NCBI GenBank assembly: GCA_018398765.1
Contig: JAHBMJ010000259.1
Location: 1 to 52,283 of the forward strand
Source of the DNA: Chromera velia
Lineage: Eukaryota
Length of the DNA stretch: 52,283 nt
Direction: 5' to 3'
The notes under the pieces were generated by a model. That model was not told where the DNA came from. It ran no database searches and saw only the letters and a list, made by a program, of their open reading frames with translations. Positions 18,441 through 52,283 of this stretch are shown here, piece after piece. Numbering within the stretch: position 1 is the first letter of the stretch; the number at the start of each line of letters is the position of its first letter. A program made the translations under genes and the position numbers.

Positions 18441-18943
18441 TCCTTGATGCTGCCCTCCCCCATTCTGCTGGCTGACCATCCTGCTCCCTCTGTTTCTCTG
18501 TCTACGGCCCCCTCGTTCTTACTAATTGAAGGAAAAGGTTCTAGTAAGTCTACCGAGGCATCATCTGGTAAGCTTTCATCTAGCATATCTAAGAGACTTA
18601 TTGAAGCCTCGATCACTTGCGTGCTAGCGGCTATAAACAACAGAAGGTGAAAAGGTACAACCAAATTGCTGGTTAGGCAGTGATGGCCCAGGAAGTTCGC
18701 GATAAGGGATCGGACACATATGCTCAAAAATACTTTATTTTTTATCTGTAAGATATTTTATACTACGTCTTAAGAGCATCAATCAAGTATTGCCTAAATT
18801 TATTATGCTTTTGCGGAGATGTGAATCCAGCTTTTAATCGATCCTATATTCCTAACGGATTCAGTATATCCTTACCCGAGTACCCACAAATTATTTTATC
18901 GATCATTCATAACATAGAGTCCCATTTTCTTCCCTCATCGAAT

Positions 18944-29500: not shown

Positions 29501-29819
29501 TCTTGCAGAGCATCGAGGCGATGGCCTCTGCTCCCGGTGCTTTGAGGGGATTTCTCTTCAGCCAGAGTTGCCTCACCAGCGTGTCGCCCTCCAGGGCCTC
29601 GCAGAGAGGTCTGATGCCGTGCACGTCCATGGCATTGCCTGCGATGTACCTGCACGACCAGGCCAGTGCATGCACCTACGTGCATTTATCTTCATATGTG
29701 AAAAGGAATTATGTATGAAAACATTTGCCTGAGATGTACCTGCACGCCCATGCAGGCCAGCCAGCACGGTCCCGCCCGAATTAACGCACCAACCATGCAG
29801 ACTCAAATTCCAAAAGGCT

Positions 29820-29872
<53 letters not shown>

Positions 29873-31300
29873 GTCAGGCAGGCACAATTAAAAACAAGAT
29901 AAATAAAGAACACTTCCTTCATTCCAGACGCCAACGCAGTCAATCGCGTGCATGCCAGAAAGAAAATCCGCAAGACAGCAGACGGGTACGGGGGCGACCA
30001 AACGGTTTGTTTCGAAACATTTTCATCTGCTGCACGCCTCATCTCTTCCTATGCATCTAATCACTGCCCTCCCTCCCTCTGCGTGCATGCCCCTTTCTCT
30101 AACGCCCCACCACCCCATTGGCTGACTGACTGACTGACCAGGAAACGATCTGAGACTTTCCCGAACGGACGAACGCAGCCACCTGCGTGCATGCATGCAT
30201 GGTCAAAGTTTGACCCGGAGAGGAAAAGATGAGATGAGTGGGTAGAAACGTACGGGCCGACATTCACACACACATGAAGGTAAGGAGAGAGCCAAAACAC
30301 TTCACAGAATTGCAAAAGAATGACAGAGAAAAATGAACAGCCGTCTTCCGACTGCCTGCTTGCCCCTGATTTGCGAGGGCCGAGCTCGATCGCGGAAAAC
30401 CAAACGTCTCCAGCCGCCCCCAAGCATTCCAGATCTAAAAAATGGAATGGAAGTGTACTTGCAGAGGTATCAGAGTTTAGTTGTAGGGACGCCTTCTTAT
30501 GAAGTAAATTGGCCAAACGCGCGCAATTTTGGGCCCTATTTTGGCAAATCCTACACAGACACAAATGCCCGCACCTACATATTCATTCCACGCACACCCC
30601 TGCACGCACGCACGCACCTTCTGTCCGAGTCCATTCCCACAGACGTTATTGCCCAACAACAGATGCCGCACTCGGGGACCGCCCCCCGGCTGCTCTCCAG
30701 AGGAAGAAGCAGAAGAGGACGCCTCACCCTCACCCCTGCCGGCAGCCGCAAGGGCGTCGAGCATGTCTGTCACCCCTGTGGGCCCTATGGCCTGCTTGCA
30801 CAGGTCCAGGCGCCCATCGGTTGTTATTGCCCCTTTTGCGAAGTGCTTCTCCGTCTCCTTCTCAGCGCCCCCTCTCACAGCATCACTCCCGAGAGCAGAC
30901 AAGAGTCCGTCCAGTCCCGAAGGTCCGATGGCCTGCTTGCACAGGTCCAGTCGGCCGTCAGAGGTCAAGGCCCCCTTCGAGAAATGAAGATCCCCGTTTG
31001 GCGCCTGACGGTCACCCCTGACGGCATCACTTCCGAGAGCAGACAGGAGACTGTCCACTCCCCCAGGGCCAATGGCCTGCTTGCACAGGTCCAGACGCCC
31101 GTCAGAAGTCACAGCGCCCTTCACAAAGTGAAGCTCATCAGGTGAAGGGGCCCCGGCATCGTTTTGTGGCGGCGCAGGGGGCCCTCTGAGCGCATCGGCC
31201 CCCAGAGCCGCGAGGAGCCCGTCCACCCCCTCAGCGGCAATGGCCTGCTTGCAGAGGTCCAACCGGCCATCGGAGGTCACGGCCCCTTTGGGAAAATGAC
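26534..31300 (-). CDS. Ribonuclease-inhibitor-like LRR region of the large gene, preceded by four DGRLDLCKQ repeats
   Basis: RHLLLGNNVCG, WYIAGN, LWLKRNPL, ILDLSYTGLLDEG, LLLDGNGITPEG, LSLGVNRLGNEG, LDLGFAKST..LGELPNRI, ending HLREILSVYR. Confidence 0.85.
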
Positions 31301-33149
31301 GCACGCCAGGGTCATCTGCCCCTGCTGTCCCATCACTCCCCGCGGGGGCAGATGCTGAGATGTCTTTTCCTGAGAGATAGGACCACAGGGGTGCCATCTC
31401 TTCTGCTGTGGCGAACTCTACAGGTTCGGGAATCGGGTCCGTGATGAGTTTACTCACAGGCATCGCCTTCAGGCGCTCCCACTGAGCGTCTGAATCCAGT
31501 TGTCGGTTGCCAAACACATTCTGCCCCCCCTCTCCCTCTTGCACCCCCCCCCCCCCCGCCTTCTTCTCTTCTGCAAACAGGCGACGGAGAGCGTCTGCAG
31601 ATGTGCCCTTGACCCAGTCAACCAGACCAGAGAGCACACGACGGTAGAAACGCTCACACACACCCTTATTGCACCCTGTTGTCAAGATCTTTTCGAACTG
31701 AAAGGCAGTCAAAGTGGACGGACAGGTCCTCCACTCCTCTTCCTCCTTCTGATTCTCTGTAGCAGTCTTCTTCTCCTGCTCAGATGGAAGCACGGACACA
31801 CGGGGATTGAGAAGCTGGAAGGTCATCACACTACACAGGTCGTTCCCTCTCGTCAAACGCCCCCCCGCGGTTTTCCCCCTGGGCGCCGCCGCCTCGGCTC
31901 CCGAGGGGGAGAAGGCGAACACGGCTGCCCGCTTTCCGGGGCCGTCCCCTCCAGCGGCGGCTGTGAGCACAGGCTGCAGCGCGAGGAAATCGGCCGCCAG
32001 CTGCAGCGAAAAGGTCTCACAGAGAAGTCTGTGCAAGATGGAGCAGAGAAAATTCTCTCTAGAGCTGCGTGGAGGGGGCTCTGTACCCTCCCCTGTGTTG
32101 AATGGCGGACGCACTGCGCTTCCTGTGCAGGCGAGAAGGTCCAGTCGCTTCAGGGCCTCCCACCCCGCCTCCTCTGCCAGCAGCAGCAGGGAGGAGTCTT
32201 CAGGAGACGTGAGGAAAAAGTCGGGACTGTCGAGTAAAGCCCGGTCTCTGTCTGTGTCCTCAACCGGGAATCTCCGTGTATTTCCCCTCTGTGCCTCTGT
32301 CTCTTTCTCCTTCATACCCACAGAGAGGAATTCAGAAGGAGCCTCCAGGAAGACGGAGAAGAGCAGCTGGGAAGAGAACACACCTGAGCGAGAGAGAATA
32401 TGGAAAGAAGAGAGGCAAACGTCAAGCAGATACAGACAGAAGGAGGCGAATCACACTCGGCCTGAAGGCAAAAGAGCTTTCTGCATGCATGGCCTTTGAT
32501 GCTTCCCACAAATGAGATCGAGGAAAATCGAGCATTCACTCACGACACAAAAACTAACTGCCAAGGATCTGATCAACATCCAAACACAATCTCATGAGAG
32601 GGCTATGAGTCTCCTCTTCTGTTCACGTCCACATTACCTTCCGAATCACGCGAAAAATGTGCTTATGCAGCAGCCACAAGGCCGGGCCCTCCCTCCTTTC
32701 TGTTTGTCTGATCAATGCAGCCTTGATGTTCCCTCGACCCACTGCCTCCCTTCCGGCGGGCCGGACGGACGGACGGACGGACTGACCATCGGTCGCCTCG
32801 TATGCCTCCCGCTCTGCCTTCCGGATGTGCCGACGCGCCCTTGCCTTCTCTGCTGCAAACGCCTCTCGCCCCCTTCCCTGCCCCCCCGGAGCCAGACAGA
32901 CAGCGAGAGCGAAGAGATCCATCAACCCTCTGTGGGAGTCTCCCCCCTCCTCCCTATCCTTCTGCAGCACGTCCCTCACAAGCTCCCTGACTCGCGAGGA
33001 AGGAATCGGCTCAGACCCGGGGAGGGCGTCAAGGGTCGATCCAGACCTGCATGCATTTATGTATGTATGTACGTGAGGGGGGAAAGGAAGCAGGGGAAGA
33101 TCGAGGTGAAATTAATGCTTCGTTCTGCTTCGTCTCACACTCTCATCTG

Positions 33150-33189
<40 letters not shown>

Positions 33190-33200
33190 AGGGGAGAGAA

Positions 33201-33243
<43 letters not shown>

Positions 33244-36200
33244 GAGAAAAACAAAGGAAAAAAAAAACGGCTGCAGGGAAGGAACGTTCTGCTGAGCACT
33301 GAAGCGAAAAACACATTCATTCTCTCACCCACCAGCCTGCAGACAGACAGACAGACCTGAGGATGCGATCGAGGTCCTTCACCACAGGGTGGGAGAACAG
33401 GGAAGGCCTCTGGAGGGCGAAAGGGAAAATGCAAGACGCCCCCTGCAGGCAGGCAACACACACATGCAGAAAGACACACACGCAGCCGTGTGCTACCTCA
33501 GGAATGGCAACCGCAGAAGCTCGGACAAAGAAAGATCTAAACGAAAAGAGGGAGGGAGGAGGCAACTTAGTTGCATATCCACGAGAGGCGTCCCCATGTA
33601 CGCCAGCAAAGACTGAGACGAAAAATATGATCTCAGAGCACTGGATCACAGAGAGAGACACAGTGACTGAATGTCACTGGATGTTCAGATGCGCTCACAG
33701 AGAGGCCTGCACTTTCTTCGGTGGGCATCTTTCTTCATATCTATTTTCTCCCGTACGTATGTTTCTACGCGTATGGGTATCTTGATATGTGCAATTAATT
33801 CTGTATCTGTCCCCCGACTGAAACGTTTCGGTCCCCTCCGTCCCCTCCGCCCACTGACCCATGGAGTGGCTTGGGTCTCGGTAGCCAGTCGTTTAAGCAG
33901 TCGGCAGTATTTTCCCAGACTTAGCTCGGCCCCCTGTCCGGCCGTCTCGGCCGCATGCACGGCAGAGACGGAGACGGGAGAGGTGAGGGAGAGCTCTTGA
34001 CTGATCACCGCGCCGCTCCCCTGACCTCCAGAAACCTTCAACATCCAGTCCTTCAACTCACGAATTGGCCAGTGTTTGATTGCCTTCACGAAGTGGTCTG
34101 AAGGATGCACGTGAATGACAGGGTCCTTGAAGGTGCTGGCCAGAATTTCGGAGCGTCTGGGAAGGACTAACTGATCTTTCTGTCCCCACACATGAAACGA
34201 GGGGATAGAGAATGCGGCCTTCCGGGGCCGCACCTCCTCCAGATTCGTGGACCCCTCTCCGCTCTCGATGAATCTAGAGACGTGGTCCCTGTCTCTGCAA
34301 TAGAACCCCGAGATGATCGCGATGAACTTGAAGGAGACGTGCTTGTACGGCTGGAGAGCTGCCAGGAGCCCCGCCAAGCAGCCGCCCTGGGAAAACCCAA
34401 TCACTCCATCTGCATGCATACAGCCAGACAGGCAGGCAGGCAGATCAGGGCATCGAGAGAAAAGAAATGTGTATTCTTCTCTTGGACTTTATTTGGGAAG
34501 GTCGACAGAATCAAGCAGAACTTGAGCCTAAGAGGGAGACTCAAACGAAATGTCAGCAGCGGTGAAGAAACGCAAGCAAAGGGGAGAACCGGAGACACCA
34601 AAAAGAAAAATCAACGACTGAGAGAGCTTTCTTGCACGGACAGACCAGAGAGATCGTTCTGCATGCAGAGAGCTCACTACCTCCCAAATTGTTTTCATCA
34701 AGAAGCGAAGTTCAGCACATCGTGTCTAATTTGCGGAAAGGACCGAAAAGGAAAGAAGGAAAGAAGCGTTAGAAAGAAAGAAAAGAGAGGGAGGGAGGAC
34801 TCGACTCGACTCACCAAAAGGGCCTTCAGACATGAAAACCCGATTGATGTACTCCAGACTCGCCTCCAGCCCCTCGTACCGCATCGAGGCAGGATCGTCA
34901 GTCGCGTTCCACCAGCACTTGCCGGACCCCCCGGCCATCCCTGCAGGCCCTCCAGAGATCAGGCCTGCAGACCGCACCGCCTCCTCAGCCTCCCCCCTGG
35001 GCACATATGGGTGAGGGGCGTCTGCGTAGGTGAGTGAGGCGACGGGCCCGAGGACCCTCTGGAGGAACGGCTGGGTGGCTGACTTGAATCTCTCCACTGT
35101 CTGGCGGTTGCTGTGGAGGACGAGCAGCTTCAAACGTCTGGCAGGAAGAAGCCCTGGGGAAGGAGAAGGAGACACCCCCTCAGCAGACCCCTCTGCTGCT
35201 TCTCCTTTGTCCTTTTTCTCGGTAGACCGGGCCCAGAGGGGAAGTCTCTTTCCCCCCTCCTTTCCTTCCAGCCAGAGCCGCTCAGCTTCAGTCGTCTCTC
35301 TGCCCAGGATGTCGTTGCGGTGCGGGTATCTGAGGGAGGGAGGGAGGGAGGGAGGGAAAGCAAGATAGAGAAAACCAGAGAGGATGGAGAAAAGGGTGAC
35401 TGCCTCACGAAGAAGATCAACAAACAAAGTGGTATTCAGACAGAGAAAAGACAAACAGAAAGTACGAATCAAGGAATAAAAGGATCAAGCAGAAAGAAAA
35501 GAGAAAAAGTCAAGTCCCGACCTTTTGAACTTTGAGAGGACATGAAGATGATCCTTGTGGGACCTGGCAGTTCTCTGAAGACTTGCGATCACTTTGCCAG
35601 GGGGGGCAGCAGGTAGCTCTGGAGCCCGCGTCTGAGGCTGAGGCTCCGATTCGCCCTCTGTCCCACGAGACGTGTAGGTCCTCTCCACTATTTTTTCTGT
35701 TTCCTTGATCACCTGGAGAGACCTCTCGCAGTCAACCAACTCTTCCGAGTGACTCAGCGCTACTGACACAAAAGTCAGGTGAGGCCAGAAAGCAGCCAGA
35801 GGCTCCACACCCAAATCTGCCAGTGCATGAGGGGATGCCGTCCCTGTCTCCCCCCCCATCATTGGCAGAAGCACAGAGCGCAGAATGAGCAAACGTGCCT
35901 CTAGTTTGGCAATCAACAAGCCAAGCGGGTCGAGTGCAAACATTTCCTTTTCACCCCTGAATGCGTTTCGGTTCATCTGGTCGCACAGCAAAAGCAGAGC
36001 AATACGGCCGTGAAAGGTGAAGGGCCACTGCGAGAGAGGGCCCAGCCCTTCTTTTCGAAGCAAATCGGACAGTTGAGATGCCACTTCAGCACCCTCTGCC
36101 TCTGCTGCCTCCAGACTACCGTTCGACCCTCCCGCCCCCTCCGCCCTCTTAGTCAGTTGGCGCAGATTGTTACCATTCAAAGACACGAAGCGGTGCAGAG

Positions 36201-37661
36201 CACGGAGAAGATCGCCGAACTGTCTTCTGATCAGCCTGTCGGCCCACCCCGCTGCATCCCTCTCCTTCCCTTCAACTTCCCCCCCCCTCACCCCATACTC
36301 CTGCACCAAGTGATCCAAACGCACCGACCGCCACCAGAGAGGACCCAGCCACTGGAACCCCCCCCCCTGAAAACCTCCAAACCAGAAACTCAGAGTCTGC
36401 TTCGGAGAGACAGAAGAGGAAATCCGCATGTCGGCCTGCTCGGACGACGGAAGCGTTATTTTGACGGCACACGCCTTTTCCTCTAGCTCGGTCAAGCTCA
36501 GCGGCATAGAAGCCTGCAGGGAGGAGAAAGTCCCGGAAGGCGGCTGTGTGTGTAATCTCTTTGCCCCCTCCTCAAACGCAGGCTCGAGAGGACGAACAAC
36601 CGCGTAACCCCTGACAGCATAAATTCCGTCCCTGGCGTCCGAATCTTCCCCCCGCCCATGGTCAGAGGGCTCCTCAGGTCCCTCCTTGTGTGCTCCCTTC
36701 AGTTCCAGGGGCCAGTTGAGAGACTGGAAGCTCGCCCCCTTGCCCACCAACCGGCCCTCTCCATCCTTGAACGTCGTCACGGCCCGGAAGGTCACGCTGA
36801 TACGCGGCCCTACGGGGGTGCCTGTTGCTGTCGATGTCGTTGCGGTTGCCGTCGGGTCATCTGCTGCTGTGGGTTGGGGGGGAAGTTGGCGGATCGAGTG
36901 ATAGAAATTCTCATTCGTTCGGGGGCCAAGAGCCAACAGAGAGCCATGTCCGAGCAAAAGAGTCTGTTCCTCCTCCCTCTTGAAGATATCCGGCCTGAGA
37001 GTATACGGTCTGGGCATTCCGAGAGAGAGGGAGACGATGGGTGTCTCTGAATCAAGGTCCAGAGTCTTGTCCTTATGGAAACCTATGCAGTCGTCTCCGT
37101 CGCGGTACAGCAGAACGACCGCGTGGTTGAACTTCACGCCCAGCCTGCACAAACGGCACAAACGGGGCGCGAAGAGCCTACAAAGCGGTACATCATTAAT
37201 ATCAGGGGGGAGGAAGAGGACAGGAAAAAACAGAGGGAGGAAGAAGCGGAGTCAATTCGACAGAAGGGAAGCAGAAGAAGAAGAGGGAGAGAAACAGCAA
37301 AAAAGCCGTCGACAGAAAAAGCGGAAAGACCATTTCCCCCATCTGAACAAACAAACGGGAGGGACTACCAGACGGACTAACGGACTCTTTGGAGACTTTC
37401 TGTCTCAGAGCCTCCACTGCAGGGGCCATCGGGGACGTCACGCCGTGTCTCTGTTGATCGTTCACAGGAAATCTGCAGGCAGACAGGCAGGCAAATGCAT
37501 GGAGGGGGGGGCAGGAAAGCCCGCAAAAAGAATCGATCAGTCTCTCTCTTCAGAATTGATTGTATGCATGGTTGAAGGGACGGGAAGGCGTTTAGATGCA
37601 TTTATTCTTCAGCCGTAGAGTGGTGGAATAGACGCATGCGTGCGACCGGATGGGAATGCAG

Positions 37662-37692
<31 letters not shown>

Positions 37693-38483
37693 TGAGTGAT
37701 CTTTGTCTGTCTTTCCTCTCTGTCCCTTTATACTCTCTCTCTTTCGTTGGCAGTGGAGTGGAATCTCATCCATCCAATCACTTTTTCCTCTTCTCTTTCT
37801 GATTCCATCTGACCGTCCCTTCCCATCCCCACCCACCCACCCACCTGTACCAAGGCAGCAGCTCGTCCTCTGTCTTCACAGCCATGGCTGCTTTCACGCG
37901 CCGGAGCCTGTCGAGGGCCCCGTGGGTGCCCGTCTTCTTCCCAGGCATGTGATACCTGTCCTTCCACACACACACATGCACACTCACGGAGATACACCCA
38001 CACAGACACACACAGACCACACGAGCGAGCGAGCAAGAGACAGGCGAGAGCAAACAGTGCAGGAGCCTGCAGGCGCACAGCTGCGGACACGCCGCCTCCG
38101 TCACGATCTTTCATGGGCGGGCAACAGGAATCAATCTATCTGGGTGCAAGGCGGGGCACGCCCGTCAGAGAGAATTGTTCAGGGAAGACGATCGAAGAGC
38201 CTGGCAGAGAGAGGGGGGCTGAGGAGGAAAAGAAAAGAAAGAGAAAGAACGGAGGCGCCGCTTGTCAGAAGAAAAAGAAGAGGGTCACTCACTAATGCAA
38301 CGCAGAATTGTCGACGCACCGACCGATTATTCATTCGACCGATCGACCGACCGACCGACCGACTGACCACTGTTGAAAGTCCACCTCCTTTTCGATGTCT
38401 TGCATCGCCTTGTCGGCCTCCTCCTGTCCGTCAGTCCGTCGTTCCGTCCGAGGGAGGGAGGGAGGGAGAATGCGCACAGAGGG

Positions 38484-38514
<31 letters not shown>

Positions 38515-39088
38515 AGGGCAAACTTAGACGAAAGAAAATTGATTACGGGTATGAATGAAGGGAGGCTTGCAAGGAAACAGACAGACAAAGGCGATTGAGT
38601 CCTGAAAGAATCCCGCCACTGTCCCGTCGCGTCGCAGGTGTGAAGACAGAGAGAGACAAAATGAGCCGGCTGAGAGGAAGCTGCCAAAGCCGAAGACCAC
38701 TCCACAGATGCCTCCCTCATTCACTGACTGACAGACTGTCTGACTGACCTTTGAGAGAAACCCCTTGCGAAGGAGTGAGTCCCCCGCACCGATTCCGTCC
38801 CCCTCCTCGAGCAATGCCGGGGGGGCAGGAGCGCCCTGCAGTCACATGAGGGGAAATATACAAGAAGTAAAGAATGTACTCGAAGGAAGAAACACAACAT
38901 AGGTCACGAGAACTTCACGTGTTGCTCACTGAAGTTCATTCAGAGACATGTGAAAGATTCAGACTGACCGCATTCCCATTCCCTGTGTCTGGCTGCTTCG
39001 GCTGGAATTCAACCAGCGCAGAATCATCTCCGTGCCCCGTGTCCTTCAGCCAGGCTGGAAGGCTGGGTTCTTTTGTAGTGCCACTCAT
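26534..39088 (-). CDS. Large multidomain protein (~2,080 aa): AlkB-like 2OG-Fe(II) oxygenase, DUF924, FSH1 serine hydrolase, 4x DGRLDLCKQ repeats, RI-like LRR. 17 exons: 39088-38969, 38835-38749, 38423-38368, 37955-37845, 37472-37386, 37144-35522, 35329-34815, 34409-33859, 33442-33357, 33046-32787, 32383-30618, 30182-30139, 29649-29487, 29012-28881, 28351-28225, 27678-27395, 26749-gap
   Basis: All 16 introns are GT-AG with compatible phases, giving one continuous frame of 6228 nt up to the assembly gap. The stop codon is not visible (gap 26302-26533). The link through exons 9-10 rests on splice logic only. Confidence 0.72.
30750..31300 (-). repeat. Four tandem diverged coding repeats HF.KGA.T.DGRLDLCKQAI...G...LL.AL
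   Basis: Visible at both DNA level (GGCCTGCTTGCA.AGGTCCA x4) and protein level within exon 11. Confidence 0.92.
34040..35135 (-). CDS. FSH1/OVCA2-type serine hydrolase domain of the large gene
   Basis: LKLLVLHSNRQT, YADAPH, CWW, GPF|DGVIGFSQGG (nucleophile Ser), IISGF, FHVWGQKD (Asp), HPSDH (His). Confidence 0.88.
35265..36405 (-). CDS. DUF924-like domain of the large gene
   Basis: TLSFWFG, LLLCDQMNRNAFRG...FALD, HSEEL..., H..VLSKFK|RYPHRNDILGRETTEAE match the DUF924 pattern (FWF, DQFPRN, HSE, FGRFPHRN.ILGR.ST.EE). Confidence 0.8.
36770..37955 (-). CDS. AlkB-like 2OG-Fe(II) dioxygenase domain of the large gene
   Basis: FNHAVVLLYRDGDDCIGFHKDKTLD (HxD), IVSLSLG..R, HGSLLALG, FYHSI (distal His), RISVTFR (2OG-binding Arg). 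Confidence 0.88.
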
Positions 39089-39842
39089 TGTAAAAGGCGC
39101 AGAAAAATCAGATACCCTTCTCTCTTTTTTGCCACAAATACTCAAAAAAGAGACGGGGAGATTGGCGGAAGTGACATGTTGTCTTTCTCTCCCAGCTCGC
39201 TACAGGTCCTTAAATTTTCTGCCTGCAGCAGAGACAGACAATCTGAACAGCTTCGAATTATACATGCATCGCGTAGACACGCTAAATGTATGAAGAGGAG
39301 TGGGCATGCAGGTCTTTCTTACCAGAATTAAAAGGAAAAAATCTTCGGTCGTCTGATCGCATCGATAATCGCGAATCCGACTTTCACTGCCGCGCACAGA
39401 ATCGGCTGCTTAATTATTAATATTAATAATTGCGCCGCGTGCGCGCGGCGGCGACGCGCGGGGCTTGGTGCATGGCGCCGGGCCGATCGATGCGCGGCTC
39501 ATCATTGCATGCAATTCATTGCGTGTGAGTGGCGCGCCGCACCACGACCACGCACTTACATACATCCGACGTTGAATTTGCACTGCACAGAAAAGTTCTA
39601 ACAGGACTGTCATGCAGCTAGCATAGTCGAGTGTCCCCGGGTCCGCTCCTGCAATGATTGCTGGGTGGAGAGGTTCCACAAACCCACAGGAGGCCTCCAT
39701 GCAGCTAGACTAGTCCTGTTTGATCAACAACACTACACGCAACTCTGTCGACGTTCGGCGTCTCTCTCTCTACTTATAATTGAATAACGGGATCGTCCGT
39801 GCCAGGCAGAGTCTGAGGAGGGGGTCCCATGATGCAAACATA
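39089..39842. promoter_or_regulatory. Probable bidirectional promoter
   Basis: Divergent ATGs at 39088 (-) and 39843 (+). An AT run (39410-39430) abuts a CpG-rich core (39432-39540) containing TGCATGCA. Confidence 0.45.
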
Positions 39843-41243
39843 ATGATTAGATTTCTCTTTTTTCTTTTGATGCTTGATTTTTCCTCTTGTTTTCCTCAGA
39901 GCAAAAAGAGGAAGAGACGGCTTCAAGAAGAGACGGCAGAGACGTCTGGACTTTCTCTCTCCGAGAGGAGAGGTGTCCCCTCCCCCAGAGGCCGGCCGGC
40001 AGCTTTTTTCGGAAGAGGCTGGTCTCTGACTGCGGGAACATCTACGCGGTTGCCCAGGGACGTTTGGGGAGTGTCGACCGGTAGAGTGGAAGTGAAGGGG
40101 GTGGCCAGGGTTGAGGAGACGGGTAGAGTGGAAGTGAAGGGGGTGGCCAGGGTTGAGGAGATGGGTAGAGTGGAAGTGAAGGGGGTGGCCAGGGTTGAGG
40201 AGATGGGGGGCACAAGTGAATTCTCTCAGGAGTCTTTCCTTCCGTCGACAGCCGCCTTGTCGAGGGCCCTGCGAAGAGAGGCCCTGCAGCTCTACCTCCC
40301 CCTCCTGGCCGTCCTCAACGAACGGGACGTCTCCAGTGGGGACCTTTTTGAAGGGTTCAACCATCTCTTCGGTGGCAGAAGGCAAAAACAGAAACGAATC
40401 CATCAGGTTGCAGAGGCCCTCTCTCCCCATCTTCCTTCCCTCTCTGCCATTTTCAGAAAGACTCTAGGGAAGGAACGACTGAGGTCAGGAAAGACCATCA
40501 ATCGGGAAATTGGTGCTTTTCTGCGACGGTTCCCAACCCAGGAAGCCCACACCCCCTCCCCCTCTCTGTTCCAACAGGCATCGTGCGACACCGATCGAGA
40601 GTTTTCATCTTCATGTGAATCGGCTCCAGTGGCTCTGACCACTTCCGAATCAGACGCCAGTCCGGTTGAAGAAGAAAAGGAGACCTCCGAGCCACAGCAG
40701 CAGGAAGATCAGCAGGAGAGGGTGGAGACCGGGTTCAAACATCTCTTCAGTGGCAGAAGGCAATATCAGAAGGGGAAGGGGAAGCATACAGAGATAGAGA
40801 GTTCAAATCTGAGGGCCCCCCGGGGTGTGTGGGAGTTGCCGAAGGAGAACATGGGAAGTCTGATGAGTCTGTTGGGGGACCGGAGCTTGACGTTGTTTTT
40901 CCTTGTTGAAGCTTGCGTGCGTCGAAAGGTTCTGACAGGGAGGGACATTGGTGAAGGTCTGAGAACTCTGTTCTCTCAAAATGCTCTTGCAGAGAATCGA
41001 AAGCAGGCCGAAATGAAAGAGGATGCATGTGCTCGCAGACTTCACCCGCACCTCGGCACTCTGTCCGTCATTTTGAAGGAGACGGTCGGGGTGGAGCGGT
41101 TGATAGACGGAGAGACAGTGCACGAGGCAACGGAAGATTTTCTTTCCCAGAAAGACCAGACGCCTCCAAATCCGTCAGGGAAACCAATGTTTAAGTCAAA
41201 GAAGAGAAGACTGTGGATACAACGAATAGAGGCTCGTGTTTGA
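39843..41243 (+). CDS. Single-exon hypothetical protein (~466 aa) with signal peptide, 14-aa tandem repeats and an internally duplicated domain
   Basis: 1.4-kb uninterrupted ORF; MIRFLFFLLMLDFSSC|FPQ leader; GRVEVKGVARVEE(T/M) x3; two related segments (EGFNHLF..LSPHLPSLSAIFRKTLGKERL and EGLRTLF..LHPHLGTLSVILKETVGVERL). Confidence 0.75.
   Translation: MIRFLFFLLMLDFSSCFPQSKKRKRRLQEETAETSGLSLSERRGVPSPRGRPAAFFGRGWSLTAGTSTRLPRDVWGVSTGRVEVKGVARVEETGRVEVKGVARVEEMGRVEVKGVARVEEMGGTSEFSQESFLPSTAALSRALRREALQLYLPLLAVLNERDVSSGDLFEGFNHLFGGRRQKQKRIHQVAEALSPHLPSLSAIFRKTLGKERLRSGKTINREIGAFLRRFPTQEAHTPSPSLFQQASCDTDREFSSSCESAPVALTTSESDASPVEEEKETSEPQQQEDQQERVETGFKHLFSGRRQYQKGKGKHTEIESSNLRAPRGVWELPKENMGSLMSLLGDRSLTLFFLVEACVRRKVLTGRDIGEGLRTLFSQNALAENRKQAEMKEDACARRLHPHLGTLSVILKETVGVERLIDGETVHEATEDFLSQKDQTPPNPSGKPMFKSKKRRLWIQRIEARV
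40080..40207 (+). repeat. 42-bp coding tandem repeat, 3 copies
   Basis: GTAGAGTGGAAGTGAAGGGGGTGGCCAGGGTTGAGGAGA at 40081, 40123 and 40165. Confidence 0.95.
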
Positions 41244-42059
41244 AAAACAAAGAAGTTCGATAATCATATAATACAGTGATACTAGGTCACGGCTGGATGC
41301 TAGATTGGATGATCTTTCGGATATTAAAAAGATACTATTAATTAGGAACGACATAAAAGGATGCGTTTAATTATTGCTTTTACTTAACTTTCTGCCAGCT
41401 AGTCTGTTTGGGGGACTCTACGAGTGGTAAGTTCCTAGGTGAGTTTCAATTTTTACTAAAATTTTTAATATGTGGATTATCCTAGGGATTGTCAGATCTA
41501 TTGTATTTATGATGGATTACTAGATGAAATATAATAAAAATTATTGATTCAAATTATAGAAGGAAGTTAAACATAAACTAGCATGAATTAAACATCCATT
41601 ATCATCGATATCATCATTATTATACGCCATCGCCACCACCTTATAAATAGGCTAGTAGTAAATAGGTATGTAGAGTCTGGCAGCAATGTATGAGGCAGTT
41701 CAATTCTTCACTGGGTTCTTCATAACAGCAGTTCTCTTTGATTTATACTTAATTCTCTACTTAATTCTAGACTTAATTGACTTTTAAATTCTTTTTAAAA
41801 AAATATTACCCATTATTACCCCCATGCATATGAATCCCGTGCTAGATCCCGTGTGAAACGGTTTTTTTTTTGCGTAACACAGCCTAAGTACTCAAGCTAT
41901 GCAAGCTTAAGTAATTTAGCTGACTCAGAGTAATTTAAAATAATTTAAAGCAATTTAGACTAATGAAAAGAAACTTTGAATAGTATATATCATAACTTTG
42001 AATTTAGTTCATAAGTCAAACCATTGCACTTAAGCTTTAAAATGCCTTTGTAGCTTCCT

Positions 42060-44155: not shown

Positions 44156-44527
44156 TCACGTGCATTCAACGCTCGATCTGATGACCACTTTTGACCGACT
44201 TTTGCATTCTAAACATCGAAAATGCTGCTTGTTGTACTCGCAGATGCAGCTTCCTCCACACTCTTTGCATGAGTCTTTCCGGTGACCATAGACGCAGACT
44301 GTGCGAGCGCCGGGGTACAGCGGGCAGCGGTACCGAAATTTCCCGTGCTTATAACGGCTACCTCCTCCACACTCTTTGCATCGCGTCCGACGCTTCCCAT
44401 AAACACACACACCCTTCCCACTACACAAGATACAGAGAGATTTCATGTTGCCATATGCATAAAATCTGCTCCCACCACACTCTCTGCAATCCCTTCTGCG
44501 CCTTCCGTGCTCACAATAGTCCTCCAC
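44156..44527 (-). pseudogene. Terminal exon encoding tandem C-x-HG...CxxCGG zinc-binding repeats, degenerate
   Basis: Acceptor TTCTTGCAG at 44528, then CEHGRRRRDCRECGG...CKECGG...CKECGGSCICEY. Seven expected Cys/His positions read Tyr. Confidence 0.7.
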
Positions 44528-44609
44528 CTGCAAGAAAACGGTCAGTGTCAAGTTAATAAATTGAGATTTGACAGGAAGAGGGACAAATGCAGGAAGCGCT
44601 AAGAATAAG

Positions 44610-45520
<911 letters not shown>

Positions 45521-45563
45521 AGTTTTGTCATACATGCCGCGTCCCCATATATGAGGGGCGGAT

Positions 45564-45919
45564 CTACAACTGTTGCGCAACTCTTGTACATGCGGTCCCA
45601 AAAAACTAGATGTGTCTTACCACTTTTATTTTCTTTCTAAAATATTGTAGTCCCAATATGCAATGATACATCCACGAACCCTCAAGAGATGTATCGATTA
45701 TGATTGCGCAAAGCTACGGACGGGCAAATAAACAACTGTTACGCAACTCTTGTGCATGCGGTCCCAAAAAACTAGATGTCTCTTACCACTTTTATTTTTT
45801 TTCTAAAATATTGTAGTCCCAATATGGAATGATGCATCGATTATAATTGAAGGGACGCCAATCCCCGGTAAATGAACAACTGTTGCGCAACTGTTGTGCA
45901 TGCGGTCCCACAAAACTAG
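45564..45919. repeat. ~148-bp satellite, left part (~2.3 units)
   Basis: CAACTGTTGCGCAACTCTTGTGCATGCGGTCCCAAAAAACTAGATGTGTCTTACCAC... with CTAG at 45606, 45772 and 45916. Confidence 0.9.
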
Positions 45920-48900
45920 GCTAGTGAAATCGGGTCTTTCTGTCAATCCTCTTCGAAGCAATCGGTTTACGGACAAGGACTTCGTGACGGAAGGGCGTCG
46001 CTTGCTTCGTTGTTGCATGCAAGCCTTAGATCATCGTCAATTAATCCAGTAGAAAGGGGGGGCGGGCGCGTGTCTACTGGGCGCCTCGGAGGATCGTTTG
46101 GAGGAGCACTACCGGTTTTGCTGTTAAGAGTCCTTGCTTCAGGATCAGACTCCCTGAGGTTCTCTCCTTTTTCGTTCGTTAGATTCCTTCTTTCCTTTCT
46201 TCCAGAACCTTCCTCTAGACCTTCCTTCTTTCCTTCGTGCTTGTTTGACTCGTTTCTTTTCGTCTTCATGATTTCTTTTGTGACTTCTGCAAATGCGCCC
46301 TTGCATGCGCTTGCATGCCCTTACTATTGAAAGAACTCTTTTCCTTCTTAGCAGATCTTGACCTGTTTGATCGTTCATGTAATCAAGCCAACAGCGATAG
46401 ATAAATGATAGTGGCAGACCGACGGGGTATGGATCGGTAGGCTAGAACGGAAGTTGTTTGGTGTTTCAGGCGGTGTATGACGCGATCGATGCCTCCTTAG
46501 ATGCGTGCGTGCGTCATCCATCTATGCATGCGCGCTGATCTCAGTATGCACGTTGCATGCATATATTTTGCATGCATGCATTTGCATTAATACACATCTC
46601 TTCAATCGATCGCTGTACATCGCTCGTATGGCATTGCCTTAAGACAGCTCCGTAAGCCTCTCTTTTTGCGTGCCGAAAACTGACAATGCATGTCGGTATG
46701 GTCAAGATTCCTCAGCTGTCTGAAGAGGTTAAAGTGATTCTAGCTCCTATATTACTAGAGCTTCTCCTGGGGCGGTGGTAGCCAAGAACTCAGGGTTTTC
46801 ACGAGAGGTTTGCAGGGAGTTTTTGGCTGTGTCCATCTCTCTGTCATGTTGCATCTGCAGTTTGAGATTTGAAGCACTTCACGGTGGTATTCTCTCTTTG
46901 TTTCCTGTTGCAGCGCGCTGCTGAACCGTCCGAAGACTGTGTTCGCTCGGCCGTTCTGTAACTAAACTTGAGAGCTCTGCCACCCTTTGACTTACTGTCT
47001 TCTTTTTATCACCTCGGTCTAGCTCACATTGCGCTTTTTGCTTTCTTGAGATGGTTGCTACAACTCCCTCCATCTTAGCCCAGGCGGTCCTCTGGAGGAT
47101 GGAAGCTTTCCTTGCTGAGCAGGGTTTTGCAACTTCGGACCCTTTCTGTTCCGGTTCGTTGGTAGAAGCTTTAGAACGTTTTTTTGGATTCCTTCGTCGA
47201 CGCAGGGATCCGGTTGCCCTCTCTAATTCAGGATGCGTTGGCTCTACAACAGCAGCCAGCTGTCACCGACGTAGGAAGCGTACGAAGAGGGGGAAACGCT
47301 TCTCTAAGGCAAAGTGAGAACGGATGAGTTCGGATGAGTGGGACACGGACGCGCCGTCTTCAAACGAATGCAGATCTCTTTCTCGGCCGGGCCCCTTGAC
47401 TGTATCATGTTGCAATCTTGAGCCCCTTCTTGTGCAGAAAGAGTCCAATGTACGTGAATATAACCATTGCTCTGTGATGAAAACAACTAGACGGTGTCCG
47501 ACTCAACCGCATCAGGAGAAGTTTCACGGTGTGTTTGGGACTTCTTCGGGAGTTTGGGGTGCAGTTGTGCGACAGAGGGATGGTTTGTCGCTTTATGCAG
47601 GAGTGGTAAATGGGGTGGGGAAGGGACATGCCTCGGTGGGGCTAGTGAAATCGGGTCTTTCTGTCAATCCTCTTCGAAGCAATCGGTTCACGGACAAGGA
47701 CTTCGTGACGGAAGGGCGTCGCTTGCTTCGTTGTTGCATGCAAGCCTTGGATCATCGTCAATTGATCCAGTAGAAAGGGGGGGCGGGCGCGTATCTACTG
47801 GGCGCCTCGGAGGATCGTTTGGAGGAGCACTACCGGTTTTGCTGTTAAGAGTCCTTACTTCAGGATTAGACTCCCTGAGGTTCTCTCCTTTTTCGTTCGT
47901 TAGATTCCTTCTTTCCTTTCTTCCAGAACCTTCCTCTAGACCTTCCTTCTTTCCTTCGTGCTTGTTTGACTCGTTTCCTTTCGTCTTCATAATTTCTTTT
48001 GTGACTTCTGCAAATGCGCCCTTGCATGCGCTTGCATGCCCTTACTATTGAAAGAACTCTTTTCCTTCTTAGCAGATCTTGACCTGTTTGATCGTTCATG
48101 CAATCAAGCCAACAGCGATAGATAAATGACAGTGGCAGACCGACGGGGTGTGGATCGGTAGGCTAGAACGGAAGTTGTTTGGTGTTTCAGGCGGTGTATA
48201 ACGCGATCGATGCCTCCTTAGATGTATGCGTGCGTCATCCATCCATGCATACACGCTGATCTCAGTATGCACGTTGCATGCATGTATTTTGCATGCATGC
48301 ATTTGCATTAATACACATCTCTTCAATCAATCGCTGTATACCGCTCGTATGGCATTACCTTAAGACAGCTCCGTAAGCCTCTCTTTTGCGTGCTGAAAAC
48401 TGACAATGCATGTCGGTATGGTCAAGATTCCTCAGCTGTCTGAAGAGGTTAAAGTGATTCTAGCTCCTATATTACTAGAGCTTCTCCTGGGGCAGCGGTA
48501 GCCAAGAACTCAGGGTTTTCACGAGAGGTTTGCAGGGAGTTTTCGGCTGTGTCCATCTCTCTGTCATGTTGCATCTGCAGTTTGAGATTTAAAGCACTTT
48601 ACGGTGGTATTCTCTCTTTGTTTCCTGTTGCAGCGCGCTGCTGAACCGTCTGAAGACTATGTTCGCTCGGCCGTTCTGTAACTAAACTTGAGAGCTCTGC
48701 CATCCTTTGACTTACTGTCTTCTTTTTATCACCTCGGTCTAGCTCACATTGCGCTTTTTGCTTTCTTGAGATGGTTGCTACGACTCCCTCCATCTTGGCC
48801 CAGGCGGTCCTCTGGAGGATGGAAGCTTTCTTTGCTGAGCAAGGTTTTGCAACTTCGGACCCTTTCTGTTCCGGTTCGTTGGTAGAAGCTTTGGAACGTT

Positions 48901-50200
48901 TTCTTAGATTCCTTCGTCGACGCAGGGATCCGGTTGCCCTCTCTGATTCAGGATGCGTTGGCTCTACAACAGCAGCCAGCTGTCACCGACGTAGGAAGCG
49001 TACGAGGAGGGGGAAACGCTTCTCTAAGGCAAAGTGAGAACGGATGAGTTCGGATGAGTGGGACACGGACGCGCCGTCTTCAAACGAATGCAGATCCCTT
49101 TCTCGGCCGGGCCCCTTGACTGTATCATGTTGCAGTCTTAAGCCCCCTCTTATGCAAAAAGAGTCCAATGCACGTGAATATAACCATTGCTCTGTGATGA
49201 AAACAACTAGACAGTGTCCGACTCAACCGCATCAGGAGAAGTTTCACGGTGTGTTTGGGACTTCTTCGGGAGTTTGGGGTGCAGTTGTGCGACAGAGGGA
49301 TGGTTTATCACTTTGTGCAGGAGTGGTAAATGGGGCGGGGAAGGGACATGCCTCGGTGGAGCTAGTGAAATCGGGTCTTTCTGTCAATTCTCTTCGAAGC
49401 AATCGGTTCACGGACAAGGACTTCGTGACGGAAAGGCGTCGCTTGCTTCGTTGTTGCATGCAAACCTTGGATCATCATCAATTGATCCAGTAGAAAGGGG
49501 GGGCGGGCATGCGTATCCGCTAGGCGCCTCGGAGGATCGTTTGGAGGAGCACTACCGGTTTTGCTGTTAAGAGTCCTTGCTTCAGGATTAGACTCCCTGA
49601 GGTTCTCTCCTTTTTCGTTCGTTAGATTCCTTCTTTCCTTTCTTCCAGAACCTTCCTCTAGACCTTCCTTCTTTCCTTCGTGCTTGTTTGACTCGTTTCC
49701 TTTCGTCTTCATAATTTCTTTTGTGACTTCTGCAAATGGGCCCTTGTATGCGCTTGCATGCCCTTACTATTGAAAGAACTCTTTTCCTTCTTAGCAGATC
49801 TTGACCTGTTTGATCGTTCATGTAATCAAGCCAACAGCGATAGATAAATGACAGTGGCAGACCGACGGGGTGTGGATCGGTAGGCTAGAACGGAAGTTGT
49901 TTTGTGTTTCAGGCGGTGTATGACGCGATCGATACCTCCTTATATATGTGCGTGCGTCATCCATCCATACATGCGCGCTGATCTTAGTATGCACATTGCA
50001 TGCATGTATTTTGCATGCATGCATTTGCATTAATACACATCTCTTCAATCAATCGCTGTACATCGCTCATATGGCATTGCCTTACGACAGCTCCGTAAGC
50101 CTCTCTTTTGCATGCCGAAAACTGACAATGCATGTCGGTATGGTCAAGATTCCTCAGCTGTCTGAAGAGGTTAAAGTGATTCTAGCTCCTATATTACTAG
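45920..50200. repeat. 1.72-kb tandem repeat, ~2.5 copies, containing decayed coding-like sequence on the - strand
   Basis: CTAGTGAAATCGGG starts at 45921, 47642 and 49362 (periods 1721, 1720). About 98% identity over the 580 bp I aligned between copies 1 and 2. Confidence 0.95.
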
Positions 50201-50764
50201 ATGTGTCTTACCACTTTTATTTTTTTCCTAAAATATTGTAGTCCGAATATGCAATGATGCATCGATCATAATTGCACAAAAACCTCAATCAACAATTATA
50301 ATTGCAGGAACGTCAATCTCCAGCAAATTAATGAACAACTGTTGTGCAATTCTTGTGCATGCGGTCCCAAAAAACTAGATATGTCTTACCACTTTTATTT
50401 TTTTCCTAAAATATTGTAGTCCCAATATGCAATGATGCATCGATTATAATTGCAGGGACGTCAATCTCCGGCAAATTAATGAATAACTGTTGTGCAACTC
50501 TTGTGCATGCGGTCCCAAAAAACTAGATATGTCTTACCACTTTTATTTTTTTCTTAAAATATTGTGGTCCCAATATGCAATGATGCATCGATTATAATTG
50601 CAGGGATGTCAATCTCCGGCAAATTAATGAATAACTGTTGCGCAACTCTTGTGCATGCGGTCCCAAAAAACTAGATATGTCTTACCACTTTTATTTTTTT
50701 CCTAAAATATTGTAGTCCCAATATGCAATGATGCATCGATTATAATTGCAGGGACGTCAATCTC
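50197..50764. repeat. ~148-bp satellite, right part (~3.7 units)
   Basis: CTAG at 50197, 50375, 50523 and 50671; same unit as 45564-45919. Confidence 0.92.
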
Positions 50765-51980
50765 ATGCGCCTCCTTGCAGGCTCCCACTCTTTCTTTGAA
50801 ATGGCCAGCTTGAATCCGTTGATCAGCTGGTACGTACAAGTTTGAGAAAAAACGGCCCAGAAATGGCTGAGTTCTCAGATTGTCAACTGCCGAAAGGAGA
50901 CGGCTCTGTGAGATAGTCCAATTCCCAAGCGAGATGGTAGGAAAGAGCGAACTGCTGGCCACTGTATGGTTCATCCTTCTCGCCGCCTGGTTGCGGGCTC
51001 TCACACCGCCGGATTGGGTGACGGTCTTGTCCCCATTCCTGTCCATCAACCACCTGGCCGTCTCCTGCCTCCTGCTGTGTAAATATCTTTTGTGGCCAAG
51101 GAGGCAACCTGTGGAGTTTTTCTTGCGGAGATGGCTACAACTTCTCACGTGCAAAGCTGTCTGCTCCACACAACGAGTTCTCTATCCACACCGACACGGG
51201 ACAAAGGACACGGTTGAGCTGAAGGTTTTCTTAGTTTATGAAAGATGGAGAGATCGGGTGCTGGAATTCGTAAAACCAGCCTTCCGTCTCCTCATAGACA
51301 AAGATGAATTGATTCGACTTCTGGAGCTGGGAGAACGGAGAATGGAGGAGATCATTTATCGCTACCTTGTCTCTCCTTTCTTCCTAGCATTTCTTTTCTT
51401 GCAACTCCTCTTTTCTATCCTTATCATTCCTCTGTGTGCTGTCATTCTGGCAAGAGGGTGGGAAGCTTGCACCCACGCCACCGCACTTGGATGGGTCGTC
51501 CTCGCACGAATGTCCATGACCATTGAGGAGGGCCTCCAACTATGTCTTGAGGCAGCAACCGGGCATCGGCAGGCCCAGACAAGTCGAATTACTACACTTT
51601 TCCCCAGGCGGAGACCTCGAGAAAAAAGGTCAGTCGCTCGCATCATCGCTTGTACTGCCTTCCTCATTCTCGTTGCGTCTCCGGCGCTTGCCGCCCATTC
51701 GCCCCCTACGGCCCTGTGTACGCAGACGGTGAAGGGAATCCCTTGGAGTGTCCCCTCCCCTACCTTCTTCTACGCACACATCCAGAGAGTGAGATGCTCC
51801 GGGCACTCAGCCTCCCCCACCTTCGCATCCGAGCTTTGGGCAACCGGCACGGCCCACCGCATAGATCCCCCTGCAAGGTGGATCCACCGCTTTTGCTACC
51901 GCTGGCTCCGTCCCACCAACGTCCCCCTCCTGACCTCACAAGACATCCGCCGTCTAGATCTCCAGCCACTTTCCCCCTGA
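50765..51980 (-). pseudogene. Possible decayed gene (in-register antisense of the 366-aa + ORF), product unknown
   Basis: The - frame reads protein-like (EETEGWFYEFQHPISPSFIN*ENLQLNRVL..., YSGQQFALSYHLAWELDYLTEPSPFG) with several stops including TAA/TAG, and runs into the satellite. Strand assignment is uncertain. Confidence 0.3.
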
Positions 51981-52283
51981 GATGCTTATCTTCTGGCAGG
52001 GCTTGTCGACGAACGTAAGTACACAGGGTTCTTCCACCCCCCACCCACAAAAGCAGATAGAAAGGAAGAAGCCGCAAAGAGAAGACGCAGAGTAGCACCA
52101 TGCTTTTCAGCACAAAGAGCAGACAGACAGCTGGGCCAAGTAGTGACTGGTCATGCCCGAACCCCCTCCTCTGTACCCCCACTTTCCTCCCCGCCTCACG
52201 CACGTCCCAACACCCGCCCGCAGCAAACAGCTTTCTTTGTCGGTGGACTGCTTCAACTCAACTTCAAGAAAAGCTACTGCTGG

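What the first reader, a model, noticed from the sequence alone, without database searches (positions are those of the whole stretch)
45921..50200. RIP-like CpA->TpA hypermutation between copies of a 1.72-kb tandem repeat in an apparently non-fungal genome
Seen: aligning copy 1 (45921-46500) with copy 2 (+1721) gives 12 substitutions, all transitions. Eleven interconvert CpA or TpG with TpA (copy-1 positions 45968, 46028, 46043, 46072, 46136, 46146, 46270, 46380, 46409, 46429, 46479). The TpA allele is in copy 1 at six sites and in copy 2 at five, so both copies were hit independently on both strands, and none of the 12 is at a CpG. The same trend continues through the array, with a minority of CpG changes. 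Established: this spectrum is the hallmark of fungal repeat-induced point mutation (RID / DIM-2 cytosine methyltransferases, Neurospora CpA preference). Inference: the host looks like a plastid-bearing alveolate, so this would be a repeat-targeted mutational genome defence, or heavy CpA methylation-deamination, outside fungi. I am not aware of this being described for such a lineage.
Basis: partly seen in the sequence, partly recalled or inferred. Interest (0 to 1): 0.9.

Follow-up and report, generated by a model that had tools for sequence, protein, structure and literature searches.

The report
CpA-biased decay of Chromera repeats
In the alga Chromera velia, a free-living relative of malaria parasites, tandem copies of a repeated element differ almost only by C-to-T changes concentrated at CA and CG steps, likely because repeats are methylated there, which would be a mild echo of the way fungi mutate their transposons.

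Summary
The host is Chromera velia, not a fungus. The array is A-B-A-B-A (A about 840 bp, B about 880 bp), TRIM/LARD-like, inserted in a 148-bp satellite. Over all three copies 67 of 71 substitutions are transitions, mostly C to T. Per site: CpA 34/242, CpG 19/191, CpC+CpT 14/436. CpA excess is real (p=4e-7), but CpG is statistically as mutable (p=0.24); the CpG-free stretch was unrepresentative. A decayed Cys/His gene nearby (7 of 24 key residues changed, all to Tyr) and, more weakly, a second repeat family agree; the satellite does not. Short duplications in host genes show CpG (5/23) but not CpA (2/63) change, so CpA mutability looks repeat-restricted (small, post hoc). No 1-kb window passes RIP index cut-offs. 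Best reading: CpG+CpA methylation-linked decay of repeats, like the Zymoseptoria Dim2 mutator, not RIP proper; a published table lists 5 cytosine-methyltransferase genes in Chromera. Methylation, enzyme and read support are untested. The scan earlier noted the opposite direction (TpA loss) in diatom DNA, not this.

The parts
45920..46759 (.). Segment A, copy 1 (LTR-like direct repeat, about 840 bp; CTAG near both ends)
46760..47640 (.). Segment B, copy 1 (internal part, about 880 bp; short ORFs 47051-47317 and from 47324 on the + strand, no Pfam match; only a weak RNase H-like lead at score 0.78)
47641..48479 (.). Segment A, copy 2
48480..49360 (.). Segment B, copy 2
49361..50201 (.). Segment A, copy 3 (closes the A-B-A-B-A array)
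45521..45919 (.). Left part of a 148-bp satellite, ending at the CTAG insertion site
50197..50764 (.). Right part of the 148-bp satellite, starting at a second CTAG; the 4-bp site is duplicated across the insertion. No CpA excess in this family (CpA 5/21, CpG 3/8, CpC+CpT 6/23, 5 transversions)
44158..44530 (-). Decayed Cys/His-repeat coding exon, six 18-residue units; 7 of 24 key Cys/His codons changed, all to Tyr (4 His, 3 Cys), i.e. CpA-to-TpA on both strands
50871..52283 (+). Second, dispersed multicopy ORF family of C. velia (paralogues 92-96% identical); replacement changes nearly all transitions; CpA 8/72, CpG 10/72, CpC 6/110, CpT 5/94; in-frame stop at 51978 where three paralogues have Trp
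4534..11723 (+). ABC1/UbiB-family kinase gene whose exons match C. velia CCMP2878 protein P0002; identifies the host and supplies the intron/exon control

Best explanation
The array is three linked copies of a TRIM/LARD-like repeat in Chromera velia whose differences are almost all C-to-T transitions enriched about three- to four-fold at CpA and CpG, most likely because a host cytosine methyltransferase marks repeats at both CpG and CpA and the marked cytosines then deaminate. Shown: host, architecture, transition excess, direction, dependence on the 3' neighbour and not the 5' neighbour, both strands hit in every copy. Inferred: (1) CpG mutability is genome-wide while CpA mutability is added in the transposon-rich compartment; (2) the cause is 5-methylcytosine laid down by one of the C5-methyltransferases listed for this genome; (3) changes accumulate gradually on double-stranded DNA, not in premeiotic bursts triggered by pairing of copies; (4) over time this raises TpA in old transposon blocks and helps disable them.
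For: Per-site rates CpA 34/242, CpG 19/191, CpT 10/249, CpC 4/187; 67 of 71 substitutions are transitions. The 5' base does not matter (ACA 9/55, CCA 6/40, GCA 9/87, TCA 10/60), which fits a methyltransferase context better than APOBEC/AID-type motifs (own knowledge). Polarity C to T, 18 against 4 at CpA-type sites. Decayed Cys/His exon 1.4 kb away: 7 of 24 key codons to Tyr against 0 of 14 Gly second-position G-to-A (p=0.033), 0 Tyr in 244 key sites of 7 annotated Chromera paralogues. Pooled over element, second family and satellite: CpA 47/335, CpG 32/271, CpC+CpT 31/663 (p=6e-7 for CpA against CpC+CpT). Short duplications inside host genes: CpA 2/63, CpG 5/23, CpC+CpT 1/85, 6 transversions; CpA/CpG contrast differs from the element (p=0.004). 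Host exons keep C at 94 of 117 NNY|A junctions against 226 of 466 before C or G (p=2e-10). Introns have TpA o/e 0.56, old transposon blocks 0.87, and the simulated equilibrium of the array's spectrum is 1.3-2.0. CpG o/e is similar in introns and blocks (0.67, 0.73). Published Pfam count: 5 DNA_methylase genes in C. velia, 0 in transposon-poor Vitrella (PMC5890265 supplement 3). Precedent: Dim2-dependent mitotic CpA mutation in Zymoseptoria (PMC8016269 passages).
Against: No methylation data and no enzyme identified; the count of 5 includes any DNMT2, and the table misses known enzymes (it lists 0 for Cryptococcus), so Vitrella's 0 is not proof of absence. The satellite shows no CpA excess (5/21 against 6/23; differs from the element, p=0.027). 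In the second family CpA against CpC+CpT is not significant alone (p=0.11; CpG p=0.035). The genic control has only 14 substitutions, was chosen after seeing the data, and partly overlaps coding sequence. TpA avoidance in exons is common in eukaryotes and TpA o/e near 0.85 is ordinary for non-coding DNA (own knowledge), so the compositional contrasts are not proof. All data come from one 52-kb window plus four paralogue proteins.
Confidence: 0.55

Rival explanations
1. A true RIP-like defence: an enzyme system recognises duplicated DNA by homology and actively converts C to T at CpA, on top of a background of CpG decay.
For: CpA is the class that separates repeats from genic duplications; linked direct repeats over 800 bp are hit on both strands in each copy; the first 580 bp of copies 1 and 2 have 11 CpA and 0 of 68 CpG changes; the decayed exon lost 7 of 24 key codons by CpA change alone.
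Against: Low intensity (about 97% identity, GC 49%); product index 0.69-0.71 and substrate index 1.26 against cut-offs of >1.15 and <=0.75; 0 of 53 windows pass; no clustering (p=0.23-0.57); CpG equally hit; about 30 Mb of transposons persist (PMC4501334 passage); a survey of MMETSP transcriptomes found RID-related DNMT4 only in diatoms (PMC9998398 passage; whether Chromera was among those screened was not seen).
Confidence: 0.17
2. A genome-wide mutation bias (C to T favoured before purines) that is simply visible in unselected repeats.
For: CpG is depleted everywhere; 2 of the 3 differences in the 78-bp genic duplication are CpA type; CA microsatellites carry 16 TA interruptions in 4 arrays against 8 other interruptions; no single-copy polymorphism data could be obtained.
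Against: Genic duplications CpA 2/63 against CpG 5/23 and 6 transversions in 14 changes (p=0.001 against the element's 4 in 71); introns and exons are TpA-poor and CpA-rich, far from the simulated equilibrium; synonymous C before A is retained.
Confidence: 0.17
3. The changes arose during retrotransposition, by reverse-transcriptase error or deamination of single-stranded cDNA.
For: Retroelement-like architecture; G/A changes outnumber C/T on the + strand, 43 to 25 (p=0.04 raw).
Against: After correcting for base counts the strand skew is not significant (42/455 against 25/414, p=0.10); every copy has both C-to-T and G-to-A; no 5'-base preference; the intron-preceded Cys/His exon shows the same change on both strands.
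Confidence: 0.08
4. The differences, or the array itself, are assembly artefacts.
For: Short-read assembly with iterative correction (PMC4501334 passage); no reads could be laid on the array.
Against: Assembly errors have no known reason to be 94% transitions with a dinucleotide preference; each copy has private changes; the insertion has a clean 4-bp site duplication; independent loci show the same transition excess.
Confidence: 0.03

Closest known systems
Dim2-dependent mitotic CpA mutator of Zymoseptoria tritici (PMC8016269, passages read)
   Same: C-to-T at CpA in repeats, linked to a cytosine methyltransferase, with no need for a sexual cycle; TpA gain in transposons.
   Different: There more than 98% of C-to-T changes were at CpA and CpG was spared; here CpA is 34 of 67 transitions and CpG is about as mutable. 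Enzyme and methylation are shown there, not here. Host is an alveolate.
Repeat-induced point mutation (RID/DIM-2) of Neurospora and other ascomycetes (PMC12543289, PMC7882544, passages read)
   Same: Transition-dominated, CpA-preferring, both strands, both copies, in long direct repeats.
   Different: Far weaker, no AT-rich product, index cut-offs not met, no clustering, CpG equally hit; homology sensing, premeiotic timing and RID not shown.
TpCpG hypermutation of Pucciniomycotina transposons (PMC3318451, abstract read)
   Same: Repeat-associated C-to-T inferred from alignments only, with a CpG component.
   Different: No TpCpG preference here (TCG 3/51 against other NCG 16/140); CpA is the leading context.
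Passive deamination of 5mC in methylated plant and animal transposons (own knowledge)
   Same: Gradual C-to-T decay that follows methylation context; CpG component.
   Different: CpA equal to or above CpG is unusual; in those systems CpG dominates.
Putative TRIM/LARD elements of Chromera velia (PMC4501334 supplement row)
   Same: Non-coding element with long direct repeats and a short internal part; the class makes up about 6.0 Mb of the genome.
   Different: No primer-binding site, polypurine tract or TG..CA ends were established; A is longer than typical TRIM repeats (recalled); ends carry CTAG.

Membership tests
Fungal RIP | C:G to T:A transitions dominate differences between repeat copies | tested here: met
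   67 of 71 transitions; polarity 29 T/A singletons against 9
Fungal RIP | CpA preferred over all other contexts | tested here: inconclusive
   CpA above CpC+CpT (p=4e-7) but not above CpG (p=0.24; pooled p=0.47)
Fungal RIP | [quoted passage not shown] | tested here: not met
   element 0.69-0.71 and 1.26; 0 of 53 windows pass; cut-offs from PMC7882544
Fungal RIP | Heavy, clustered mutation per pass | tested here: not met
   53 differences in about 1.72 kb between copies 1 and 2, spacing no closer than chance
Fungal RIP | Restricted to repeats | tested here: inconclusive
   genic duplications lack the CpA excess (2/63) but are short and few; the satellite also lacks it
Fungal RIP | Triggered by homology between copies, at a premeiotic stage | not testable with these tools
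   needs crosses or engineered duplications
Fungal RIP | RID/Masc1 or DIM-2 methyltransferase present | not tested
   no genome held; only a published count of 5 Pfam DNA_methylase genes without family assignment
Methylation-linked repeat decay (Dim2-like or passive 5mC deamination) | Mutation rate set by the 3' neighbour, on both strands | tested here: met
Methylation-linked repeat decay (Dim2-like or passive 5mC deamination) | 5mC at the mutable contexts in repeats | not testable with these tools
   no methylome found in searches
TRIM/LARD non-autonomous LTR retroelement | Long direct repeats around a non-coding internal part, with target-site duplication | tested here: met
   A-B-A-B-A, 4-bp CTAG duplication, no Pfam match in the ORFs scanned
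TRIM/LARD non-autonomous LTR retroelement | TG..CA termini, tRNA primer-binding site, polypurine tract | tested here: inconclusive
   by eye: ends read TG..TA inside the CTAG sites, a purine-rich run precedes A, no primer site next to A

The most novel reading that the evidence does not exclude
Chromera velia has an active, methyltransferase-driven mutator that converts CpA to TpA specifically in repeated DNA: a RIP-like genome defence evolved independently in the sister group of apicomplexan parasites.
Probability: 0.2. Interest if true: 0.88.

Novelty: new member of a known kind. Interest (0 to 1): 0.55.

Why it matters
RIP is described as fungus-specific (PMC7882544 abstract), and a vegetative CpA mutator was said to have little precedent in any eukaryote (PMC8016269 discussion). 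My searches found no methylome or repeat-mutation study for Chromera. A CpA-directed repeat signature gives a direct prediction (non-CG methylation of transposons) for the closest photosynthetic relative of apicomplexans, which have few transposons and one or two methyltransferase genes. It is cheap to test on the public assembly and by one nanopore run. If only passive decay, it is a first sequence-based sign of CpA methylation in chromerids; if an active mutator, it is a second origin of RIP-like defence.

Tried and rejected
No whole genome is held and no sequencing runs were obtained, so genome-wide RIPCAL-type analysis and read checks were not done. A motif of segment A found 0 matches in metagenome and viral contigs; the second family found no loci in metagenome contigs (274 pattern matches, none confirmed). 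Exact look-ups of window ORFs found 0 of 7 and 1 of 10, a singleton. The profile search of protein representatives never ran (queue full, 7 tries). Rfam: 0 matches in 45400-52283, so no hammerhead retrozyme support. Pfam: 0 of 85 further ORFs matched; no methyltransferase is encoded in the ORFs scanned. ESM Atlas: weak RVT_3 lead at 0.78 for the B ORF, treated as noise; nothing for the second family. Opposite direction (TpA to CpA) rejected by polarity. APOBEC-like 5' context rejected. Clustering not found. Coding repeats at 30780-31300 were left out of the genic control as saturated (76-83% identity); pairs 26936/27035 and 9713/27358 were also left out; the 40-bp five-copy intron array had no differences and its sites were not counted. 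In the second family, 29 of 33 distinct replacement events were scored for context; left out were 2 transversions, 1 two-step change and the Trp-to-stop change; one ambiguous event was counted as CpT; contexts come from the window's DNA only. Microsatellite interruptions were inconclusive. PMC9998398 supplements: 12 of 23 files searched, no Chromera entry; the 11 unsearched files may classify its enzymes. PMC4501334 supplements: 12 of 16 searched.
Full report
Host. An exon at 7285-7530 retrieved a Chromera velia CCMP2878 kinase (P0002) as best hit at 95% identity, the next at 68%. Laid on the window, P0002 matches exon by exon from 4534 to 11723, with 100% over the first 161 residues and mismatches elsewhere compatible with alignment run-over at intron edges. 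A second window ORF is identical over 154 residues to a member of a cluster of C. velia proteins. The contig is therefore chromerid, not fungal. No whole genome and no reads were available.

Architecture. The array runs 45920-50201 as A-B-A-B-A: A about 840 bp in three copies, B about 880 bp in two, period 1721 then 1720. It interrupts a 148-bp satellite at a CTAG site that appears on both sides. No Pfam or Rfam match was found in it. This is the layout of a tandem non-autonomous LTR-type element; the genome paper lists about 6.0 Mb of putative TRIM/LARD sequence for Chromera (PMC4501334, supplement row). Primer site and canonical ends were not established, so the family label is tentative.

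The observation. In 45921-46500, copies 1 and 2 differ at 12 sites, all transitions, 11 of CpA type, 6 with TpA in copy 1 and 5 in copy 2, none at CpG; binomial p=1.6e-6 against context-free transitions. Over all three copies there are 67 transitions and 4 transversions; per site CpA 34/242 (14%), CpG 19/191 (10%), CpT 10/249, CpC 4/187. CpA exceeds CpC+CpT (p=4e-7), so does CpG (p=0.001), and CpA and CpG do not differ (p=0.24). Because earlier notes of this scan describe the reverse process in diatom DNA, I polarised the three-copy part: at CpA-type sites 18 T/A singletons (7, 5, 6 per copy) against 4 C/G singletons, so at least 11 are C to T whichever copy is the outgroup. Each copy carries both C-to-T and G-to-A; the + strand skew (43 against 25) is not significant per site (p=0.10); spacing is not clustered. 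The 5' base has no clear effect.

Other repeats. (a) A decayed exon at 44158-44530 (- strand) encodes six Cys-x-His..Cys-x2-Cys units of a family amplified in Chromera and common in other genomes (120 of 180 hits listed; two hits carry PF19114, whose name EsV-1-7 is recalled). Seven of 24 key codons are changed, all to Tyr: 4 His and 3 Cys, that is CpA to TpA on each strand. Tyr occurs at 1 of 4004 key sites in 113 proteins without a Chromera name and 0 of 244 in 7 Chromera proteins; these are selected proteins and serve only to polarise. His-to-Tyr and Cys-to-Tyr are CpA-type by construction, so I compared them with Gly second positions (CpC type), 0 of 14 changed by my count (p=0.033). (b) The ORF at 50871-52283 has four other C. 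velia copies 92-96% identical. Of 33 distinct replacement events 30 are single transitions (one ambiguous), 2 transversions, 1 two-step. Visible rates: CpA 8/72, CpG 10/72, CpC 6/110, CpT 5/94; CpG p=0.035, CpA p=0.11. (c) The satellite: CpA 5/21, CpG 3/8, CpC+CpT 6/23, 5 transversions, no excess, and different from the element (p=0.027). Pooled (element, b, c): CpA 47/335, CpG 32/271, CpC+CpT 31/663.

Repeat-specific or genome-wide. No single-copy polymorphism could be had. Three indirect controls point the same way. Short duplications inside host genes give CpA 2/63, CpG 5/23, CpC+CpT 1/85 and 6 transversions; the CpA/CpG contrast differs from the element (p=0.004) and so does the transition share (p=0.001); this is 14 changes, chosen after the fact, with the exclusions listed under Tried and rejected. 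Host exons keep C at 94 of 117 pyrimidine third positions before A against 226 of 466 before C or G. Introns have TpA o/e 0.56 and CpA 1.36, old transposon-rich blocks 0.87 and 1.14, while the array's spectrum run to equilibrium gives TpA 1.3-2.0 and CpA 0.7-0.9. CpG o/e is alike in both (0.67, 0.73). The simplest reading is CpG mutability everywhere and CpA mutability added in repeats. Against: TpA avoidance in genes can be selective, microsatellite remnants raise intron CpA, two of three changes in one 78-bp genic duplication are CpA type, and the satellite does not conform.

RIP or not. The element has product index 0.69-0.71 and substrate index 1.26; the published cut-offs are >1.15 and <=0.75 (PMC7882544 passages); 0 of 53 windows pass. 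Its TpA o/e equals that of introns. Neurospora crosses give up to 108 changes in an 802-bp duplication construct in one cross (PMC12543289 passage); here copies 1 and 2 differ at 23 of 841 sites in A after an unknown number of generations. RIP proper is therefore not met on intensity or exclusivity, although a young element under a weak RIP would also fail the indices. The nearest precedent is the Dim2-dependent mitotic CpA mutator of Zymoseptoria (PMC8016269 passages), which spares CpG, unlike this case.

Enzyme. A published Pfam survey lists 5 DNA_methylase genes in C. velia, 0 in Vitrella, 1-2 in apicomplexans (PMC5890265 supplement 3, read whole; main text has no mention). The count includes DNMT2-type genes and misses some enzymes, so it shows capacity only. 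Vitrella has 1.5 Mb of transposons against about 30 Mb (PMC4501334 passage). A microalgal survey reports DNMT4 only in diatoms (PMC9998398 passages; 12 of 23 supplements searched, no Chromera entry). I could not retrieve or classify the Chromera proteins.

Novelty. Searches for Chromera with RIP, with DNMT terms, with 5-methylcytosine and transposons and with bisulfite found no relevant paper by title and abstract listing; a search for RIP-like CpA mutation listed 30 of 49 papers, all fungal by title; searches added nothing on this. The library lacks most subscription papers.

Verdict. The signal is real, directional and probably repeat-associated, but it is a CpA plus CpG pattern of modest strength. 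Methylation-linked decay of repeats is the best reading (0.55); an active RIP-like mutator stays open (about 0.2). Interest 0.55.

Noticed in passing
window 350-11750 and 26600-41250: Host genes are strikingly TpA-poor (o/e 0.30 in exons, 0.56 in introns, 0.40 over gene regions) and CTAG is about five times rarer than in transposon-rich DNA; may reflect a TpA-removing bias or selection in genes.
   Followed up: partly
window 45915-45925, 46755-46760, 50197-50201: Every junction of the array carries CTAG, including the target site in the satellite; could indicate site-specific insertion or recombination at a CTAG core rather than an ordinary target-site duplication.
   Followed up: partly
window 45921-46500: Between copies 1 and 2 no CpG changed here (0/68) while 13/122 changed in the rest; possible local protection from CpG methylation or recent conversion.
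   Followed up: partly
window 21406-22203 (+): Prim-Pol plus PriCT_2 primase fragment of virus or Polinton type inside the transposon-rich block.
   Followed up: no
window 15227-15799 (-) and 18131-18757 (-): Chromodomain and reverse-transcriptase fragments of decayed retroelements.
   Followed up: no
window 35485-37251 (-): One open frame joining a 2OG-Fe(II) oxygenase (AlkB-like) domain and DUF924.
   Followed up: no
window 30477-32450 (-): Host ORF with four copies of a conserved 20-residue motif, no Pfam match, synonymously saturated.
   Followed up: no
window 50871-52283 (+): Multicopy C. velia ORF with hydrophobic stretches and no family match in Pfam or the ESM Atlas; probably part of an unclassified mobile element.
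   Followed up: partly
window 10763-10952 (+): 78-bp tandem duplication at an intron-exon boundary of the kinase gene; also a perfect five-copy 40-bp array at 10393-10593.
   Followed up: partly
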